Shown here piece after piece: positions 2,968 to 32,185 of a DNA stretch of 38,716 nucleotides (position 1 is the first letter of the stretch; each line of letters begins with the position of its first letter). The notes under the pieces are model-generated. The model had not been told where the DNA came from. It made no database searches and saw only the letters and a list, made by a program, of their open reading frames with translations. The stretch lies in IMG/VR virus record IMGVR_UViG_2740892369_000044; one strand, written 5' to 3'. A program made the translations under genes and the position numbers. The stretch is from a virus. Taxonomy: Duplodnaviria; Heunggongvirae; Uroviricota; Caudoviricetes.

Positions 2968-3216
2968 TCATGCAGCGTTGCTCACGGGACGATATACACG
3001 TTGCTGAACAGGAGGTTTTTTACCCTGGAACTCTGCCGGGCTTGCTGCCTGACGTTCATCAAGCCAACGCTCAACTTCGTCACGGTTCCATGCGCAGCGT
3101 TTGTCAGTGATATACCAGCGTTTAGGAAATTCCCCTGCGCGCTCCATACGGTCGATAGTGCTCCATGACAGTGGCACCACCGCCAGGAGTTCCTTCTTAC
3201 CTAATGCACCTTTCAT
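2968..3216 (-). CDS. AlpA/Xis-like excisionase-type HTH DNA-binding protein
   Basis: 82 aa; pattern LSWSTIDRMERAGEFPKRWYITDKRCAWNRDEVERWL resembles the AlpA/excisionase winged-helix family; sits between integrase and recombination genes. Confidence 0.65.
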   Translation of the reverse strand: MKGALGKKELLAVVPLSWSTIDRMERAGEFPKRWYITDKRCAWNRDEVERWLDERQAASPAEFQGKKPPVQQRVYRPVSNAA

Positions 3217-3265
3217 AAATACCTCTCTTGGTTGCAGTGCGGCGCGTGTGGCGCCGCGGTGGTGG

Positions 3266-4147
3266 TTACATAGATGTTTCGTTTAATTCTTCCCGACGAA
3301 CGCTGTAAACGTCGGTGGCTTTTGCCAGCAGTTCGTCATCATCTGAAAGTTTTTGTGCAATGTATTTGTAAGCCTTATCCAGTTCGGAGACAGTGCTGTA
3401 ATTCATCGCTGCGCTGGTAAAGGCCATCAGCATTTCTTCTGGATCACGGCTATCCGCTTTACGAGTTTGCTCATCAGGCTTTTTCACTGGTTTAGCGTTG
3501 ATCAGACTGTTCATTCCCGCAGCAGTAGTTGTTTGCGGAGTAATGTCTCGCTCAACGCGCGGTGCCGTTTCCTGTAATTCGTCAGGGGTGTAAACACCGA
3601 GAAGCACATCAGGAGCGTGCAGGCGAGCCCATCGTTTCGTGCAAAGATAGGCAAGCTGCTGGCGCGGATCCTGTTCCCACAATGGAGAGTTACGCACTCC
3701 GGCTTGCGCCATACTGATGGTAAGCTCACGGGGTTCTGCTTCTCCTTTAAGAACTGCTGACACAGTTACCGTCAGATTCGGTGATTTATCTGTTTTGCCG
3801 TTAACATTCGACCAGTCACCGCTCCAGCGATAATTCAGGCGTGTCGCCAGCAGGCTGGAAGAGGATACGACCGCGTTTACCAACTGTGCTTCGTAGCCTA
3901 ACGTTCCGTTTACCACATGCGTTTTCTGCGCCACGGCGAAAGGGTTCATTCCCCACTGTGCCGCCTGCATGGTCACCGCCAGACAATCGGCAGGTTTGCC
4001 TTCAAGATGTTTCGGTACAGTCGCTTTGCTTTGTGACATCAACTCCGCGAAACGCACCAGTTGATTCATGCCCTCCGGGCTGAAGATTGCCGCAGCAGTA
4101 CCTACAGTTGCACCTGGTTGTGATGTGATTGCGATATCATTGCTCAT
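3266..4147 (-). CDS. Red-beta/RecT-superfamily single-strand annealing protein
   Basis: 293 aa; WGMNPF and DPRQQLAYLCTKRWARLHAPDVLLGVYTPDE resemble the lambda Bet segments YGLNPW and HPKRMLRHKAMIQCARLAFGFAGIYDKDE; stop overlaps the upstream exonuclease gene. Confidence 0.75.
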   Translation of the reverse strand: MSNDIAITSQPGATVGTAAAIFSPEGMNQLVRFAELMSQSKATVPKHLEGKPADCLAVTMQAAQWGMNPFAVAQKTHVVNGTLGYEAQLVNAVVSSSSLLATRLNYRWSGDWSNVNGKTDKSPNLTVTVSAVLKGEAEPRELTISMAQAGVRNSPLWEQDPRQQLAYLCTKRWARLHAPDVLLGVYTPDELQETAPRVERDITPQTTTAAGMNSLINAKPVKKPDEQTRKADSRDPEEMLMAFTSAAMNYSTVSELDKAYKYIAQKLSDDDELLAKATDVYSVRREELNETSM

Positions 4148-6308: not shown

Positions 6309-6539
6309 ATGAGCGATAACGGACATTTCGATTTCAAAAAGCACTGGCTTGCACTTACTCCGGATGAGCGTGAAGCCTTCGCACAGGAAGCCGGAACGAC
6401 GAGTCACTATATCCAGACTCACTTAACAGGTAAGCGCAAAATGCCAGGTAAGGTATTGATGAATGGGCTTTTTAAAGCCTGTAAATCAAGACAATGGTTG
6501 CGCTCAAAAGCAGAACTGGCATACTTCTTCTACTCATGA
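6309..6539 (+). CDS. Cro-like small HTH regulator
   Basis: 76 aa; first rightward gene after the operator cluster; HTH-like segment EREAFAQEAGTTSHYIQTHLTGKR. Confidence 0.55.
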   Translation: MSDNGHFDFKKHWLALTPDEREAFAQEAGTTSHYIQTHLTGKRKMPGKVLMNGLFKACKSRQWLRSKAELAYFFYS

Positions 6540-6560
6540 TATCCAGCCACAACCCTCTGT

Positions 6561-6585
6561 AGACCGCCACCCGGCGGTCTTTTCA
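6561..6585 (+). terminator. Rho-independent terminator after the Cro-like gene (tR1-like position)
   Basis: Stem AGACCGCC / GGCGGTCT with loop ACCC, followed by TTT. Confidence 0.6.
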
Positions 6586-6594
6586 TATCTATTC

Positions 6595-6609
6595 GTACCT
6601 CAAAGGTAA
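6595..6609. promoter_or_regulatory. Additional operator-type site GTACC-TCAAA-GGTAA just downstream of the tR1-like terminator
   Basis: Read directly; same half-site geometry as the OR/OL copies. Confidence 0.4.
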
Positions 6610-6689
6610 TAAAAAACCAAATCTGGTTGATCTTTTTTTTGTGTCAGCACAAAATGACCGTAATCCCAATACTAATAACAGGGCTTACC

Positions 6690-6890
6690 ATGGAAATCAT
6701 TACACGTATTGATGCCGCAAAGCGCGGACTTAAACGCTACTACACCGGAAAACCATGTAAGCATGGACATGACAGTGAACGCTGGGTTTACAACGGACAC
6801 TGTGTTGAGTGCACCATGGAATCAAACCGTCGCATCAGGGCAGAGATTAAGCAGATCATGATTAATTCCTCCCCACAACACTCAAGCTGA
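6690..6890 (+). CDS. Small zinc-ribbon protein in the cII-like position (about 66 aa)
   Basis: Internal ATG of track ORF 6627..6890; Cys/His cluster CKHGH...CVEC; function not inferable from motif. Confidence 0.4.
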   Translation: MEIITRIDAAKRGLKRYYTGKPCKHGHDSERWVYNGHCVECTMESNRRIRAEIKQIMINSSPQHSS

Positions 6891-11347: not shown

Positions 11348-11678
11348 ATCAGCAGCAGAGCGCAAAGCCGCTCAGAGAGCCAGACAAGCTGCATCTGGTG
11401 TGCGTAAGCTGGAGATTGTGCTTGATGCTCAGGAAATTGAAATGCTAGAGCGTAACTGTGCCACGCGTCGCCCCGGGCGTGCGCCTTACGAATTTGGTGA
11501 GTATATAGCGTCACTGATCCGCCAGGATGATGCACGCGTGCGCGGGCGTATAAAATCGATCAGCAGAAAACGTTGCGGTAAGTGCGGCGAGAGAGTTCCA
11601 GTTAATTCATGCCCGTGCAATGGTGACTCGCAATGCTGGGTGACTAAAGGCTGGCATGAAACGAAATTAATAGTGTGA
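11340..11678 (+). CDS. Zinc-ribbon DNA-binding-like protein; candidate late-gene regulator by position
   Basis: 112 aa; basic N-terminal helical region and C-terminal Cys cluster CGKCGERVPVNSCPCNGDSQC; last gene before the terminase operon. Confidence 0.45.
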   Translation: MAKSAAERKAAQRARQAASGVRKLEIVLDAQEIEMLERNCATRRPGRAPYEFGEYIASLIRQDDARVRGRIKSISRKRCGKCGERVPVNSCPCNGDSQCWVTKGWHETKLIV

Positions 11679-11727
11679 CATGTCACGATTAGATTATGCA
11701 TGATGAATTTGATGTGTTTTGAATACT

Positions 11728-28910: not shown

Positions 28911-31385
28911 ATGAGACAGGAATGTATACAAGCGGTCCAGCAGGCGGCGCAGCGCACGTTAACGGCGCGAGAAATACAGAACATTGAAGACCGCATTTAT
29001 CGAAATATGCGCTCCATTGCTCGTGATGACCCGATGTCGTGGCGACAACTTTCCGAATCAGAACGGTTGTATCGTGCAGCACAATTGGCATCTGAAGAAT
29101 TACAGCGAGAAGCGGCATTAAAGAAACGTCGTGTGGCCCTCACTATAGCCGCACGTCAGAGATTGGATAAATTTATCAATAGCTATCAAGGGGCTGATGG
29201 GAAACTTGGCGCTCTTAACCGTACTATTGCTTTTAATGCAGACGGTAAATCGAATTTCCTCTCTGTTGAATCCAGAACAAAAGCCACTCGTGATTATGCA
29301 TTGAGTCAATTGCAGGAGGCATTTGAAGCAGTTGATCCTCGCTTTTTTGGCCTGTTTGAAGATGAAGCGGGCGTGCGTGACCTGGTATATGAAATGCGAG
29401 GGCAAAATACTGGCAATGCTAAAGCAAGAAAAGGTGCTAAGGCGTGGAGAGAAGTGACAGATCTACTGCGCCGCCGGTTTAATGATGCTGGTGGGGACAT
29501 TGGCTATCTCGAAAACTGGGGGATCCCTCAACATCATTCTATGGAAAAGGTTGGGGCGGTATCAAAAGATAAATGGGTTAGCGATGTTATAGGTAAGCTG
29601 GATCGCAAATATTATACCCGAGCCGATGGACAACTGATGAACGATGCCGAGTTGTCTGCATTTCTTGGAGAGGCTTATAACACGATCGCTACTGGTGGGC
29701 TGAATAAGCTTACTGATACCGGAATGCGAATTTCCGGCGTACGTGCTAACCGTGGTAATGCATCACGACAGATACATTTCAAAGATGCAGATTCCTATCT
29801 GCAATATCAGCAACTTTATGGCGATCGCTCTCTATGGGAAATCATGGTCGGTCACCTGGAAGGTATCAGTAAAGATATTGCGCTGGTGGAAACATATGGC
29901 CCAAACCCCGATCATGTTTTCCGCTCTCTTCTTGATCAGGTTAAGGCAGAAACGGCAACAGCTAACCCGAGTAAAACCGGTAGCGTCGAGCGTCTGGCGA
30001 ACAAAACAGAGAACTTGTACAACTTTATTTCCGGAAAAACACAGCCTGTAGCGAATCCGCACATCGCGCGATGGTCTGACAATATCCGCAACTGGCTGGT
30101 TGCCAGCAGACTCGGATCCGCGTTGCTGTCATCGTTCTCTGATCTTGGAACCATGTATCTGTCTGCGAAGGTTACCAACCTTCCAATGAACCAGTTATTT
30201 CGCAACCAGCTTGAAGCTATGGACCCAACGAACCGTACTGAGCTTGCGCGGGCGCGCCGCGCTGGCCTGGCGATGGAATCTCTACTTGGCAGCGTTAACC
30301 GCTGGGCGATGGATAATATGGGGCCGTCTGTGTCTCGTTGGGCGGCAACGGCGGTAATGCGTGCCAGTGGGCTTACAGCATGGTCAGATGCGCACAAGCG
30401 CGCCTATGGCGTAACCATGATGGGAAGCCTGGGAGAAGTAGTGTCACGGACACCAGACCTTCGTAGCCTCGATGACTCTGATTTTCGTATCCTGAAAAGT
30501 AAAGGGATTACTGACACAGACTGGAGCGTATGGAAGCTGGCGCAACAGGAGGACTGGGGGAACGGTAATAATACGATGCTGACACCGGAAAGCATTATGC
30601 GTATCCCTGATTCAGCAGTTAAACATCTTGGTGAGCCTGAACGCGTGAAATTTGAGGCAATGCGTAAACTGCTCGGTGCCGTAACTGAAGAAGTTGATAT
30701 GGCTGTTATTACACCGGGAGCACGTGAGCAACTGATAACCGGTTCTGGTATTCAGCGTGGAACATGGAAAGGTGAATTAACGAGAAGTGTTTTCCTGTTT
30801 AAATCGTTCCCTATCTCGGTTGTTATGCGTCACTGGTCACGCGCTATGGGTATGCCGTCTGCTGGTGGGCGTGCGGCATATATTGCGACGTTTATTGCCA
30901 GTACGACCATTCTTGGCGCTTTGTCGCAGCAACTTAACGACCTTGCGTCTGGTCGTAATCCTCGAGAGATGACAGGAGAAGATGCCGCAAAATTCTGGCT
31001 TGGTGCTCTACTGAAAGGTGGTGGTCTTGGCCTTTACGGTGACTTTTTATTGTCAGATCACACTAGGTACGGAAGCGGCGCGCTGGCGTCGATGCTTGGC
31101 CCGGTAGCTGGTCTGGTTGATGACGTAGTGAAGATTGCTCAGGGCATACCGTTAAATGCTGTGGAAGGGAAGAGTGAGCAGACTGGTGGTGATCTGGTGA
31201 AGCTGGGGAAAGGTTTGATGCCTGGTGCGAATCTCTGGTACTTGAAGGCGGCTCTCGATCACATGATCTTTAACCAGATGCAGGAGTATTTTTCACCAGG
31301 CTATTTGCGTAAAATGGAGCAACGTTCGAAGAAAGAGTTTAACCAGACATACTGGTGGCGACCTCAGGATGTCACTCCGCAATAA
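28911..31385 (+). CDS. Internal virion/ejection protein (gp16-like)
   Basis: 824-aa ORF in the position of T7 gp16. Confidence 0.5.
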   Translation: MRQECIQAVQQAAQRTLTAREIQNIEDRIYRNMRSIARDDPMSWRQLSESERLYRAAQLASEELQREAALKKRRVALTIAARQRLDKFINSYQGADGKLGALNRTIAFNADGKSNFLSVESRTKATRDYALSQLQEAFEAVDPRFFGLFEDEAGVRDLVYEMRGQNTGNAKARKGAKAWREVTDLLRRRFNDAGGDIGYLENWGIPQHHSMEKVGAVSKDKWVSDVIGKLDRKYYTRADGQLMNDAELSAFLGEAYNTIATGGLNKLTDTGMRISGVRANRGNASRQIHFKDADSYLQYQQLYGDRSLWEIMVGHLEGISKDIALVETYGPNPDHVFRSLLDQVKAETATANPSKTGSVERLANKTENLYNFISGKTQPVANPHIARWSDNIRNWLVASRLGSALLSSFSDLGTMYLSAKVTNLPMNQLFRNQLEAMDPTNRTELARARRAGLAMESLLGSVNRWAMDNMGPSVSRWAATAVMRASGLTAWSDAHKRAYGVTMMGSLGEVVSRTPDLRSLDDSDFRILKSKGITDTDWSVWKLAQQEDWGNGNNTMLTPESIMRIPDSAVKHLGEPERVKFEAMRKLLGAVTEEVDMAVITPGAREQLITGSGIQRGTWKGELTRSVFLFKSFPISVVMRHWSRAMGMPSAGGRAAYIATFIASTTILGALSQQLNDLASGRNPREMTGEDAAKFWLGALLKGGGLGLYGDFLLSDHTRYGSGALASMLGPVAGLVDDVVKIAQGIPLNAVEGKSEQTGGDLVKLGKGLMPGANLWYLKAALDHMIFNQMQEYFSPGYLRKMEQRSKKEFNQTYWWRPQDVTPQ

Positions 31386-31393
31386 GGAAGTGT

Positions 31394-31568
31394 TGTGTTT
31401 TTAATTATTTTGAGTGTGATAATTTCTGGTGGATTGTTATTTATTGACCGCTACAAATATTTTCTTAACCCTCAGACTCAAGCTATTTGCTGGTTCATCT
31501 TTGTTGTGCAGGGAGTAGTTCTTGTTGCAAGCCTTATTGAGGGGAGGCCTCTTATTTTTACTGGGTAA
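31394..31568 (+). CDS. Small two-TM membrane protein (about 58 aa), not in the ORF track
   Basis: Hand-translated GTG-initiated ORF with AAGGAAG ribosome-binding site overlapping the upstream stop; hydrophobic sequence FLIILSVIISGGLLF...WFIFVVQGVVLVASLI. Confidence 0.3.
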
Positions 31569-31580
31569 ATAGGTGACTAC

Positions 31581-31877
31581 ATGCAAGCTATAGGATTCAT
31601 TGTTTATATCGTCGTTGGTCTTTTTCAGTTGGCAGCAATTATGGCTGGGCTTGAATCATGGTGGGGATTGCACTGGATAATTGCAGCCCCCATTGCTTTC
31701 ATCGTGAGCTATATTCCATTTGTTGGAGCGATTGTTGGTATGGTTGGCGCTGTGGATGTATGGCGGTGGGAGTGGTGGCAGGCTGGCCTTCTCTTCTTTG
31801 GTGGGATCATCTTTGCTATTGTCTGCGGTGGAATGTCATCATTTTTCGAATGGCTATCATTCAGAAAAGGGACGTGA
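31581..31877 (+). CDS. Small multi-TM membrane protein
   Basis: 98 aa; three or four hydrophobic helices, Trp-rich. Confidence 0.55.
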   Translation: MQAIGFIVYIVVGLFQLAAIMAGLESWWGLHWIIAAPIAFIVSYIPFVGAIVGMVGAVDVWRWEWWQAGLLFFGGIIFAIVCGGMSSFFEWLSFRKGT

Positions 31878-31885
31878 CATGTCAC

Positions 31886-31910
31886 AGGCCGCTTTCGCGG
31901 CCTTTTCTTT
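31886..31910 (+). terminator. Rho-independent terminator
   Basis: Stem AGGCCGC / GCGGCCT with loop TTTC, followed by TTTCTTT. Confidence 0.65.
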
Positions 31911-32166
31911 ATGTGGTTTGTTTTCGTAATTGTTCGGCACAATAGTCGAGATGTGTTTGCAGATCCTGCATAGACATCTGTGAGCTGGTGACGTAGTTAA
32001 TCAGTGCAGTCAGTTCGGCAAGTGGGCCATCGACATTAAATCCATCCTTATCGAGATCCCGGAGTAATTTCATCAAGTGCGATCCCTCCACCAGTGACCT
32101 GACGCCTCCCGGCGTGTGAATCCTTTCGGTAAATCCGTCTTCCAGTGGATAGTGATACTGCTGCAT
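31909..32166 (-). CDS. Small SOS-controlled protein (about 85 aa); candidate antirepressor or other SOS effector
   Basis: ATG at 32166 with GGAGAAG ribosome-binding site (track ORF starts at TTG 32184); canonical LexA box about 20 bp upstream; antisense to the late operon. Confidence 0.55.
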   Translation of the reverse strand: MQQYHYPLEDGFTERIHTPGGVRSLVEGSHLMKLLRDLDKDGFNVDGPLAELTALINYVTSSQMSMQDLQTHLDYCAEQLRKQTT

Positions 32167-32185
32167 CTTATCTTCTCCATGCAAT

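What the first reader, a model, noticed from the sequence alone, without database searches (positions are those of the whole stretch)
31394..31877. Two small multi-TM proteins after the ejection genes, one missing from the ORF track
A 58-codon GTG-initiated ORF (strong ribosome-binding site overlapping the upstream stop) and a 98-aa protein with three or four TM helices follow the last ejection protein and end at a strong terminator. Small inner-membrane proteins in this position are candidates for superinfection exclusion (blocking incoming DNA) or for components of the ejection channel.
Basis: partly seen in the sequence, partly recalled or inferred. Interest (0 to 1): 0.4.

Follow-up and report, generated by a model that had tools for sequence, protein, structure and literature searches.

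The report
Variable membrane-protein slot after ejection genes
Two real small inner-membrane protein genes, one usually left unannotated, sit in a swappable slot at the end of the structural operon of a phiV10/epsilon15-like E. coli prophage, where P22 keeps its DNA-entry blocker SieA; their function is untested.

Summary
They end at a strong terminator.

Both are genuine genes. dN/dS is about 0.2 for ORF-A and 0.02-0.05 for ORF-B; off-frame controls give about 1-3. Shine-Dalgarno sites are conserved.

NCBI's annotation skips ORF-A in a prophage identical across the cassette.

The segment is a swappable slot. On near-identical backbones it holds ORF-A+B, or phiV10's 46-aa two-helix protein, or a small hydrophobic ORF plus a lipoprotein. 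All are envelope-targeted.

- ORF-A is a two-helix hairpin. It sits where epsilon15 gp18 and phiV10 gp21 sit but shows no detectable homology to them.
- ORF-B is a self-contained cassette. Its family is large and uncharacterised (748 clusters, no Pfam model) and also occurs outside phages.

Function is not shown. Synteny with P22 sieA makes blocking of incoming phage DNA the best guess (about 0.35). Against it: no SieA homology, no promoter of their own, and non-phage relatives of ORF-B. A holin role or a virion-component role is unlikely.

Modest interest; a new member of a known kind.

The parts
28911..31385 (+). Context: 824-aa homologue of phiV10 p20 / epsilon15 gp17, the IVP-D (T7 gp16-type) ejection protein. 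It is the last large gene of the late structural operon.
   Evidence: PHROG 684 with E=0. 98% DNA identity to phiV10 across the region, where the matching gene is p20. IVP-D assignment of epsilon15 gp17 in PMC4819975.
31384..31390 (+). Shine-Dalgarno site AAGGAAG of ORF-A. It overlaps the TAA stop (31383-31385) of the upstream gene.
   Evidence: Read directly from the sequence. A purine-rich SD overlapping the upstream TAA is kept in all 8 start contexts seen among 110 copies.
31395..31568 (+). ORF-A: 57 aa, GTG start, two-helix membrane hairpin with a basic loop (DRYKYFL).
   Evidence: 13 homologous clusters at 67-98% identity in E. coli, Citrobacter, Klebsiella, Salmonella and Enterobacter. 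dN/dS 0.17-0.27 in frame against 0.8-1.85 off frame. AF2 helices 2-20 and 26-49. GC 36.8% against 50% for the late operon.
31571..31576 (+). Shine-Dalgarno site AGGTGA of ORF-B. It is part of the conserved cassette junction TAA-ATAGGTGACTAC-ATG.
   Evidence: The same junction follows three or more different upstream genes.
31581..31877 (+). ORF-B: 98-aa integral membrane protein with three hydrophobic spans, Trp-rich loops (ESWWGLHW, DVWRWEWWQ) and a basic C-terminal tail. Member of PHROG 3075 and of a large uncharacterised membrane-domain family.
   Evidence: PHROG 3075 with E=1.6e-54. 52 clusters in the first homologue search. Profile search: 748 clusters at E<=1e-3. AF2 pLDDT 90. dN/dS 0.02-0.05. 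No Pfam, NCBIfam, PADLOC or PDB match.
31874..31885 (.). 12-bp palindrome GTGACATGTCAC overlapping the ORF-B stop codon. It marks the conserved 3' boundary of the variable slot.
   Evidence: Invariant in phiV10 and 65FD and in epsilon15. The only other exact copy in the window is at 11675-11686, just upstream of the small-terminase gene.
31886..31910 (+). Intrinsic terminator of the late operon: 7-bp G+C-rich stem, TTTC loop and a T tract.
   Evidence: Annotated as a terminator at the same place in phiV10 and epsilon15.
31909..32184 (-). Context: convergent 91-aa homologue of epsilon15 gp19 (PHROG 450, with a weak resemblance to antirepressor C-termini). In relatives a Bro-N antirepressor gene is inserted next to it, giving a P22 immI-like region before the tailspike gene.
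32362..34983 (+). Context: tailspike gene (873 aa).
   Evidence: annotated as a right-handed parallel beta-helix protein.

Best explanation
The window is a phiV10/epsilon15-like (Uetakevirus) temperate podophage integrated in E. coli. Between the stop codon of its last ejection-protein gene and the late-operon terminator lies a short cassette slot that recombination refills with different small envelope proteins.

Here the slot holds two independent cassettes:
- ORF-A is a 57-aa two-helix inner-membrane hairpin. It is translated from a GTG start by coupling to the upstream gene.
- ORF-B is a 98-aa three-span inner-membrane protein that brings its own ribosome-binding site.

Shown: both are real, selected genes. 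They are accessory, because they are swapped or absent on otherwise identical backbones. They are membrane proteins and the last cistrons of the late operon.

Inferred, and the mechanism I commit to: the proteins insert in the inner membrane of the producing cell. There they interfere with the trans-envelope DNA conduit that incoming related podophages build from their gp15-17-type ejection proteins. This would be superinfection exclusion at the DNA-entry step, working like P22 SieA or T4 Imm without being related to them.

Confidence that they are real accessory membrane-protein cassettes is about 0.9. Confidence in the exclusion mechanism is about 0.35, and that is the figure given.
For: - Real genes: dN/dS and off-frame controls. 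An SD site is conserved in 8 different ORF-A contexts, and all 110 copies start with GTG or TTG. Homologues reach several genera.
- Membrane proteins: hydropathy and AF2 helices.
- Slot polymorphism on near-identical backbones: of 80 IMG/VR loci whose gp17 C-terminus is 98-100% identical, 41 carry ORF-A (40 with ORF-B; one is cut by the contig end), 29 the 46-aa phiV10 p21, and 9 a 41-aa hydrophobic ORF plus a 128-aa lipoprotein.
- In 5,426 complete E. coli genomes, 320 carry the gp17-like 3' end; 216 have ORF-A+B, 54 p21 and 34 the lipoprotein allele.
- Other slot contents in relatives are signal-peptide or two-TM proteins, so all are envelope-targeted.
- The ORF-B cassette junction TAA-ATAGGTGACTAC-ATG is the same after different upstream genes.
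- ORF-A and ORF-B assort independently. ORF-B occurs without ORF-A in Cronobacter, Salmonella, Yersinia and Klebsiella prophages. An ORF-A homologue is followed by a lipoprotein gene in Salmonella Muenchen.
- Synteny with P22 sieA: last ejection gene, then the membrane protein, then an antirepressor region, then the tailspike. SieA is a 3-TM inner-membrane protein whose escape mutants map to ejection proteins gp16 and gp20 (PMC10883804).
- ORF-A GC is 36.8% against 50% for the operon.
Against: - No sequence relation to SieA; the conserved SieA motif FxRYPxEAxxFNK described in PMC10883804 is not present in the 98-aa sequence.
- No hit to 5,027 PADLOC defence models.
- The genes share strand and operon with late structural genes. 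No sigma-70-like promoter was found upstream, so expression in the lysogen, where exclusion pays, is not shown. P22 sieA has its own promoter on the opposite strand.
- ORF-B is under unusually strong purifying selection (omega about 0.03).
- ORF-B's family includes chromosomal, non-phage members (after umuDC in Buttiauxella; beside TctC/GntR genes in Microvirga) and fusions to DUF805, RDD and MORN domains. This fits a general membrane function better than an arms-race protein.
- No experiment on any family member was found in the literature searches.
Confidence: 0.35

Rival explanations
1. General membrane-physiology cargo. ORF-B is a phage-borne copy of a widespread bacterial small membrane protein of unknown housekeeping or stress role, carried as a moron that benefits or merely rides with the host. 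It would have no specific action on incoming phages. ORF-A would be an unrelated small hairpin with a similarly non-exclusion role.
For: The family has 748 clusters at 50% identity, 325 of them at E<=1e-10. Members occur in non-phage neighbourhoods and beside other small membrane proteins such as DUF6804. Fusions to DUF805, RDD, MORN and extra TM segments exist, and one protein carries the domain in tandem. Omega is 0.02-0.05. In one JGI lineage the gene stands alone near an integrase, not after ejection genes.
Against: In every Enterobacterales genome examined it lies in a podophage prophage. Nearly always it comes directly after the IVP-D-type gene and beside antirepressor genes. The same slot alternates with lipoprotein, periplasmic and hairpin proteins, a pattern typical of phage-versus-phage loci.
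Confidence: 0.3
2. Late-infection helper for the phage's own cycle. As the last cistrons of the late operon, the proteins would act in the producing cell. They might tune lysis timing or membrane energisation (antiholin-like), or shield the inner membrane from the phage's own membrane-active ejection proteins during assembly.
For: Same strand as the late genes, tight coupling and no promoter of their own. A small hydrophobic protein occupies this first slot position in epsilon15 (gp18, 64 aa), phiV10 (p21, 46 aa) and here. ORF-B has a weak, sub-threshold Pfam hit to Phage_holin_5_2 (E=0.027).
Against: A complete lysis cassette lies elsewhere: Phage_holin_8, Phage_holin_3_7, a GH19 endolysin and a DUF2514 spanin at 35619-37426. 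The holin hit appears in only 4 of 28 family members, at the same level as unrelated hydrophobic families. Slot contents are non-homologous and dispensable on identical backbones. Cronobacter and Salmonella relatives lack any hairpin protein.
Confidence: 0.15
3. Virion or ejection-channel components, packaged with or inserted alongside the gp15-17-type proteins.
For: Adjacency to, and translational coupling with, the ejection-protein genes.
Against: Phages with 98-100% identical gp17 C-termini carry unrelated slot proteins or only one of them. There is no detectable homology among ORF-A, phiV10 p21 and epsilon15 gp18. Very hydrophobic 2-3-TM proteins are unlikely capsid cargo (inference). ORF-B has non-phage relatives.
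Confidence: 0.05
4. ORF-A is not translated. It would be a chance ORF in an AT-rich spacer, and only ORF-B would be a gene.
For: Non-ATG start, only 57 codons, unannotated by PGAP in most E. coli genomes, and no family hit in any HMM library.
Against: In-frame dN/dS is 0.17-0.27 against about 1 or more off-frame. Length and helix pattern are kept at 67% identity across genera. A strong SD is retained through sequence turnover in 8 contexts.
Confidence: 0.03

Closest known systems
P22 SieA (superinfection exclusion A; Leavitt et al. 2024, PMC10883804)
   Same: A small inner-membrane protein with three predicted TM segments. It is encoded between the last ejection-protein gene and the tailspike gene, next to an antirepressor (immI-type) region, in a temperate O-antigen-specific podophage. 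It is present in only some relatives: 22 of 66 P22-like phages carry sieA.
   Different: No sequence similarity (BLASTP E=20), and the conserved FxRYPxEAxxFNK motif is absent. SieA is 162-164 aa against 98 aa. SieA is on the opposite strand with its own promoter and is expressed from the prophage. ORF-A and ORF-B are the last cistrons of the late operon with no promoter detected. ORF-B has chromosomal, non-phage relatives.
epsilon15 gp18 (64 aa) and phiV10 gp21 (46 aa, 'putative integral membrane protein, two predicted TM helices')
   Same: Same position as ORF-A: directly after, and coupled to, the gp17-type gene, before the same palindrome and terminator. Same architecture: two hydrophobic helices joined by a short basic loop.
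   Different: No detectable homology to ORF-A (hhalign probability below 1%). They belong to different PHROGs (7892 and 29212), whereas ORF-A matches none. Neither has a known function.
Morons / lysogenic-conversion cassettes of the late regions of temperate phages (e.g. HK97 gp15, lambda bor and lom, cor)
   Same: Small envelope proteins inserted between conserved structural genes. They are present in some relatives and replaced in others, end at a terminator, and deviate in base composition (ORF-A). HK97 gp15 is cited as a DNA-injection blocker in PMC10883804.
   Different: The classical definition requires an own promoter, and none was found here. ORF-B has no GC deviation (46.5% against 50%).
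T4 Imm and Sp (from my own knowledge, plus the mention in PMC12373910)
   Same: Small envelope proteins made by the infecting phage itself that block DNA entry of later-arriving phages. This shows that exclusion proteins need not be prophage-expressed.
   Different: No sequence comparison was made. The T4 genes are early genes of a virulent myovirus.
PHROG 3075 (unknown function)
   Same: ORF-B matches the profile end to end (E=1.6e-54, positions 1-98 of 98).
   Different: The family carries no functional annotation, so membership says nothing about function.

Membership tests
P22 SieA family (types A-C) | Sequence homology to SieA, including the conserved cytoplasmic motif FxRYPxEAxxFNK | tested here: not met
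   BLASTP of ORF-B against P22 SieA gives E=20. The motif is absent from the ORF-A and ORF-B sequences.
P22 SieA family (types A-C) | Integral inner-membrane protein with about three TM segments | tested here: met
   By prediction only: three hydrophobic spans in ORF-B and all-helical AF2 models. Localisation was not measured.
P22 SieA family (types A-C) | Gene lies between the last ejection-protein gene and the tailspike gene of a podophage prophage | tested here: met
   The IVP-D assignment of gp17 is from PMC4819975.
P22 SieA family (types A-C) | Own promoter and expression from the repressed prophage | tested here: not met
   Same strand as the late operon. The SD overlaps the upstream stop codon. 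No sigma-70-like site with at least 9 of 12 matches lies upstream, and relaxed scans found only 8 of 12 matches. Transcription itself cannot be tested with these tools.
P22 SieA family (types A-C) | Blocks DNA injection of related podophages; escape mutants map to ejection proteins | not testable with these tools
   Needs plating, K+ efflux and genetic experiments.
Moron (independent accessory transcription unit in a phage late region) | Present in some genomes and absent or replaced in close relatives, between conserved flanks | tested here: met
   Three alleles sit behind 98-100% identical gp17 C-termini. Conserved boundaries are TAAGGA on the 5' side and GTGACATGTCAC plus the terminator on the 3' side.
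Moron (independent accessory transcription unit in a phage late region) | Own promoter and own terminator | tested here: inconclusive
   A terminator is present, but it is shared with the late operon. No promoter was found. Third-codon-position conservation rises in the last 150 nt of the upstream gene; this could hide a regulatory element or simply be a recombination boundary.
Moron (independent accessory transcription unit in a phage late region) | Base composition differs from the neighbouring genes | tested here: inconclusive
   ORF-A is 36.8% GC against 50%, although its hydrophobic codon usage lowers GC anyway. ORF-B at 46.5% is not distinct.
Holins (the Pfam Phage_holin_5_2 lead) | Significant match to a holin family, placement in the lysis cassette next to the endolysin | tested here: not met
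   The best hit scores 15.2 bits against a gathering cut-off of 29.2. Only 4 of 28 family members hit it, no better than unrelated hydrophobic families. A complete lysis cassette lies at 35619-37426.
PHROG 3075 | Full-length significant match to the family profile | tested here: met
   E=1.6e-54, residues 1-98 aligned to profile positions 1-98 of 98.
epsilon15 gp18 / phiV10 gp21 small hairpin proteins | Homology, as opposed to shared position and architecture | tested here: not met
   hhalign probability 0.5% for both comparisons. Position and two-helix architecture are shared.
Known anti-phage defence systems (PADLOC-DB 2.0) | Match to any defence-protein model | tested here: not met
   No hit at E<=1 for ORF-A or ORF-B.

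The most novel reading that the evidence does not exclude
The stretch between the IVP-D-type ejection gene and the late terminator of Uetakevirus prophages would be a dedicated, rapidly reshuffled 'entry-barrier' locus. Its alternative occupants are ORF-A-type hairpins, ORF-B, a lipoprotein and periplasmic proteins. Each would block a different envelope step of DNA delivery by rival podophages. ORF-B would then be the founding characterised member of a large, Pfam-less membrane-domain family (748 clusters) that bacteria also use chromosomally.
Probability: 0.25. Interest if true: 0.55.

Novelty: new member of a known kind. Interest (0 to 1): 0.35.

Why it matters
About 6% of complete E. coli genomes (320 of 5,426) carry this prophage type, and two thirds of those carry this cassette. 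One of its two genes is routinely missed by automatic annotation.

If the slot proteins block DNA entry, several things follow:
- They would be a second example, unrelated in sequence, of SieA-type exclusion aimed at the podophage ejectosome.
- They would give genetic handles on how gp15-17-type ejection proteins cross the inner membrane.
- They would matter for O157 typing phages and phage-based biocontrol, since lysogens could resist phiV10-like phages independently of O-antigen modification.

If they do not block DNA entry, ORF-B still flags a large uncharacterised membrane-domain family with no Pfam model.

Tried and rejected
1. Holin or antiholin: a sub-threshold Pfam hit is not reproduced across the family, and a complete lysis cassette lies elsewhere.
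2. SieA homology: none.
3. Known defence systems: no PADLOC hit. NCBIfam and Pfam: nothing.
4. Fold comparison of the confident ORF-B model: no match at E<=0.001 in the PDB or BFVD. The best hits are insignificant K+-channel pore domains (E>=3.8, probability <=0.14). The PDB sequence profile search found nothing. The afdb50 library was unavailable.
5. ORF-A as a diverged allele of phiV10 p21 or epsilon15 gp18: no profile-profile signal.
6. ORF-A as a stop-codon read-through extension of the gp17-like protein. It is in the same frame, three codons after the TAA. This was rejected because phiV10 has a second in-frame stop there and epsilon15 gp18 overlaps gp17 in another frame, and because ORF-A keeps its own SD.
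7. Non-coding RNA in the region: only sub-threshold Rfam hits.
8. Promoter for prophage-state expression: none at 9 of 12 matches or better, and only 8-of-12 matches in a relaxed scan.
9. Overlapping ORFs on either strand (e.g. 31658-31945 +, 31709-31942 -): interrupted by stops in diverged alleles, with off-frame dN/dS of about 1 or more.
10. Literature: no paper in the held library addresses these proteins. The epsilon15 genome paper (PMC2698709) is not held, so whether gp18 was looked for in virions could not be checked.

Full report
**What the window is.** The region around the finding is 97-99% identical to phiV10, HEMP4, phiv142-3 and YDC107_2, which are E. coli members of the genus Uetakevirus (epsilon15-like temperate podophages). 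The phiV10 map fits the window:
- terminase genes from 11719;
- the structural and ejection block up to 31385;
- the tailspike at 32362-34983;
- a lysis cassette at 35619-37426, made of Phage_holin_8, Phage_holin_3_7, a GH19 endolysin and a DUF2514 spanin.

The 824-aa gene ending at 31385 is the homologue of phiV10 p20 / epsilon15 gp17. Hardies et al. place gp17 in the T7 gp16 (IVP-D) ejection-protein family (PMC4819975).

**The observation.**
- ORF-A runs 31395-31568 (GTG start, 57 aa).
- Its Shine-Dalgarno site AAGGAAG overlaps the upstream TAA stop.
- ORF-B runs 31581-31877 (98 aa) behind AGGTGA.
- A G+C-rich hairpin with a T tract follows at 31886-31910. Terminators are annotated at the same place in phiV10 and epsilon15.
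- Hydropathy gives two hydrophobic spans for ORF-A and three for ORF-B.
- AlphaFold2 gives a two-helix hairpin for ORF-A (pLDDT 76). For ORF-B it gives a confident all-helical model (pLDDT 90) with helices 2-28, 32-42, 46-59 and 65-97.
- ORF-A is not annotated by PGAP in E. coli E2865, whose prophage is 100% identical over the cassette and the adjoining 600 bp, nor in the YDC107_2 record.

**Are they genes?** Yes.
- ORF-A has 13 homologous clusters at 67-98% identity in E. coli, Citrobacter, Klebsiella oxytoca, Salmonella and Enterobacter. Length, both helices and the loop motif DRYKYFL are conserved.
- Against diverged alleles, ORF-A dN/dS is 0.17-0.27 at dS 0.6-0.8. The same alignments read in the other two frames give 0.8-1.85.
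- All 110 ORF-A copies collected start with GTG or TTG, never ATG. Each sits behind a strong purine-rich SD overlapping the upstream TAA, in eight different sequence contexts. That pattern indicates coupled, probably modest, translation.
- ORF-B matches PHROG 3075 end to end and has 52 clusters in the first search.
- ORF-B is under very strong purifying selection, with omega 0.02-0.05 at dS >= 0.8 and off-frame controls of 0.85-3.2.
- Overlapping ORFs on either strand are broken by stops in diverged alleles. No Rfam family reaches threshold.

**The segment is a cassette slot.** Aligning the window with phiV10 and Salmonella phage 65FD shows conserved flanks: the end of the gp17-like gene up to TAAGGA, and then the palindrome GTGACATGTCAC plus the terminator. 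Everything between differs. phiV10 and 65FD carry a single 46-aa two-TM ORF (p21) where the window has ORF-A+B.

Census of 80 IMG/VR loci whose gp17 C-terminus is 98-100% identical to the window:

| Slot content | Loci |
|---|---|
| ORF-A (40 with ORF-B; 1 cut by the contig end) | 41 |
| p21 alone | 29 |
| 41-aa hydrophobic ORF plus 128-aa lipoprotein | 9 |
| Too short to score | 1 |

Census of 5,426 complete E. coli genomes:

| Feature | Genomes |
|---|---|
| gp17-like 3' end | 320 |
| ORF-A+B | 216 |
| p21 | 54 |
| Lipoprotein allele | 34 |

Epsilon15 has a 64-aa two-TM gp18 at the same place.

**The two ORFs assort independently.**
- ORF-B directly follows the gp17-type gene in Cronobacter and Salmonella prophages.
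- In Klebsiella and some E. coli prophages it follows a 102- or 123-aa signal-peptide protein.
- In Yersinia it follows a divergently oriented gene for a protein with a signal-peptide-like hydrophobic N-terminus.
- In one JGI lineage it stands alone beside Bro-N and integrase genes.
- An ORF-A homologue in Salmonella Muenchen is followed by the lipoprotein gene instead of ORF-B.
- ORF-B always carries the same junction, TAA-ATAGGTGAC(T/C)AC-ATG, whatever lies upstream. It therefore moves as a unit with its own ribosome-binding site.
- ORF-A, p21 and gp18 show no detectable homology to one another (hhalign probability below 1%).

Every occupant seen is targeted to the envelope as a hairpin, multi-span protein, lipoprotein or secreted protein.

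**What ORF-B is related to.** It has no Pfam, NCBIfam or PADLOC model. It has no PDB sequence or fold relative and no BFVD fold match.

A profile search of 1.84 billion cluster representatives finds 748 clusters at E<=1e-3 and 325 at E<=1e-10. Most are stand-alone proteins of about 100 aa. Some are fused to DUF805, RDD, MORN repeats or further TM segments, and one carries the domain several times in tandem.

Relatives also occur outside prophages. One lies after umuDC in Buttiauxella, one beside TctC/GntR genes in Microvirga, and one beside a DUF6804 membrane protein and a serine recombinase in another Microvirga genome.

The weak Phage_holin_5_2 hit (E=0.027) is not reproduced across the family beyond the noise level of hydrophobic families.

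**Comparison with P22 sieA.** P22 has the order gene 16 (last ejection protein), sieA, immI (mnt/arc/ant), gene 9 (tailspike). Here and in relatives the order is gp17-type gene, slot, gp19-like gene with or without a Bro-N antirepressor, tailspike.

SieA is a 162-164-aa inner-membrane protein with three predicted TM segments. It blocks DNA injection, and escape mutations map to ejection proteins gp16 and gp20. [quoted passage not shown]

The resemblance is one of position, protein class and patchy distribution. It is not one of sequence or of gene organisation. sieA is on the opposite strand with its own promoter. ORF-A and ORF-B are the last late-operon cistrons, and I found no credible promoter.

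Third-codon-position identity between E. coli and Salmonella phages rises to 0.7-0.85 in the last 150 nt of the gp17-like gene, against a typical 0.4-0.6. This could be a hidden regulatory element or just the recombination boundary.

**Verdict on mechanism.**
- Shown: two real, selected, accessory membrane-protein cassettes in a polymorphic slot at the end of the late operon.
- Inferred: they act in the inner membrane of the producing cell.
- Best guess (about 0.35): interference with DNA entry by related podophages, SieA- or Imm-like in logic.
- Main rival (about 0.3): ORF-B is a general small membrane protein carried as cargo. This is favoured by its breadth, its chromosomal relatives and its very low omega.
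- A role in the phage's own late cycle: about 0.15.
- Virion component: about 0.05.
- Untranslated ORF-A: about 0.03.

**Novelty.** The proteins are already in databases as hypothetical proteins. phiV10 p21 has long been annotated as a two-TM membrane protein. Small membrane accessory genes in this position have a clear precedent in P22. New here are the demonstration that ORF-A is a selected gene, the description of the slot and its alleles, and the size of the ORF-B family. I rate it a new member of a known kind, of modest interest.

Noticed in passing
window 11675-11686 and 31874-31885: The exact 12-bp palindrome GTGACATGTCAC occurs only twice in the window. One copy lies 32 nt upstream of the small-terminase start (11719), at the beginning of the late operon. 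The other overlaps the ORF-B stop codon just before the late terminator. The second copy is conserved in phiV10, 65FD and epsilon15. A second exact copy of a given 12-mer is expected about 0.005 times by chance. It may be a regulator site bracketing the late operon, or a recombination boundary.
   Followed up: partly
L026, L031, L053, L091: about 3109-3292 (slot, lipoprotein allele): In the lipoprotein allele the first slot ORF is 41 aa with one hydrophobic helix. A second hydrophobic segment (AAAWFGFVVFGIVLF) is encoded in another frame immediately downstream, identically in all four loci read. This could be a frameshifted or degenerate two-helix gene, or programmed frameshifting.
   Followed up: no
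window 35120-35515 (- strand): A lone 131-aa GtrA-type flippase gene (PF04138) sits where phiV10 has its O-acetyltransferase and where Cronobacter relatives have glycosyltransferase genes typical of a gtrABC module (GtrA_DPMS_TM in one locus, Glycos_transf_2 and Glucos_trans_II in others). No gtrB or gtrC lies next to it. The serotype-conversion module therefore looks reduced.
   Followed up: no
window 31236-31385 (last 150 nt of the gp17-like gene): Third-codon-position identity to the Salmonella phages rises to 0.7-0.85 here, against 0.4-0.6 over most of the gene. Similar peaks lie near -1290/-1260 and -1110 from the gene end. This could be an embedded signal or a recombination junction.
   Followed up: partly
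L002 (phage YDC107_2, CP025713.1) 1700-1930: This record has a 1-nt deletion and a 1-nt insertion about 58 nt apart in homopolymer runs inside ORF-A. Its gp17-like gene is split into several short CDSs ('17 domain protein'). These are probably sequencing errors rather than biology.
   Followed up: no
L006-L008 (Cronobacter sakazakii prophages) 6362-6820: A hicA/hicB-type toxin-antitoxin pair (HicA_toxin plus DUF1902) lies between the ORF-B homologue and the Bro-N antirepressor gene. The region between the late terminator and the tailspike is thus a second accessory-gene hotspot.
   Followed up: no
P0073 (427 aa) and P0072, P0084, P0087, P0088, P0163: The ORF-B domain occurs several times in tandem in one protein. 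In others it is fused to DUF805, RDD or MORN repeats or to extra TM segments. It appears to be a widespread membrane domain without a Pfam model.
   Followed up: partly
window 31909-32184 (- strand): The 91-aa gp19-like protein (PHROG 450) also resembles the C-terminal end of antirepressors (PHROG 1760, E=4e-7). In phiV10 and many prophages a Bro-N antirepressor gene is inserted beside it. The arrangement is reminiscent of P22 immI.
   Followed up: no
window 37646-38716 (- strand): Genes for a DUF5384 protein and a glycine-zipper 2TM lipoprotein-like protein follow the lysis cassette. They look like host flank, or further envelope cargo at the prophage end.
   Followed up: no
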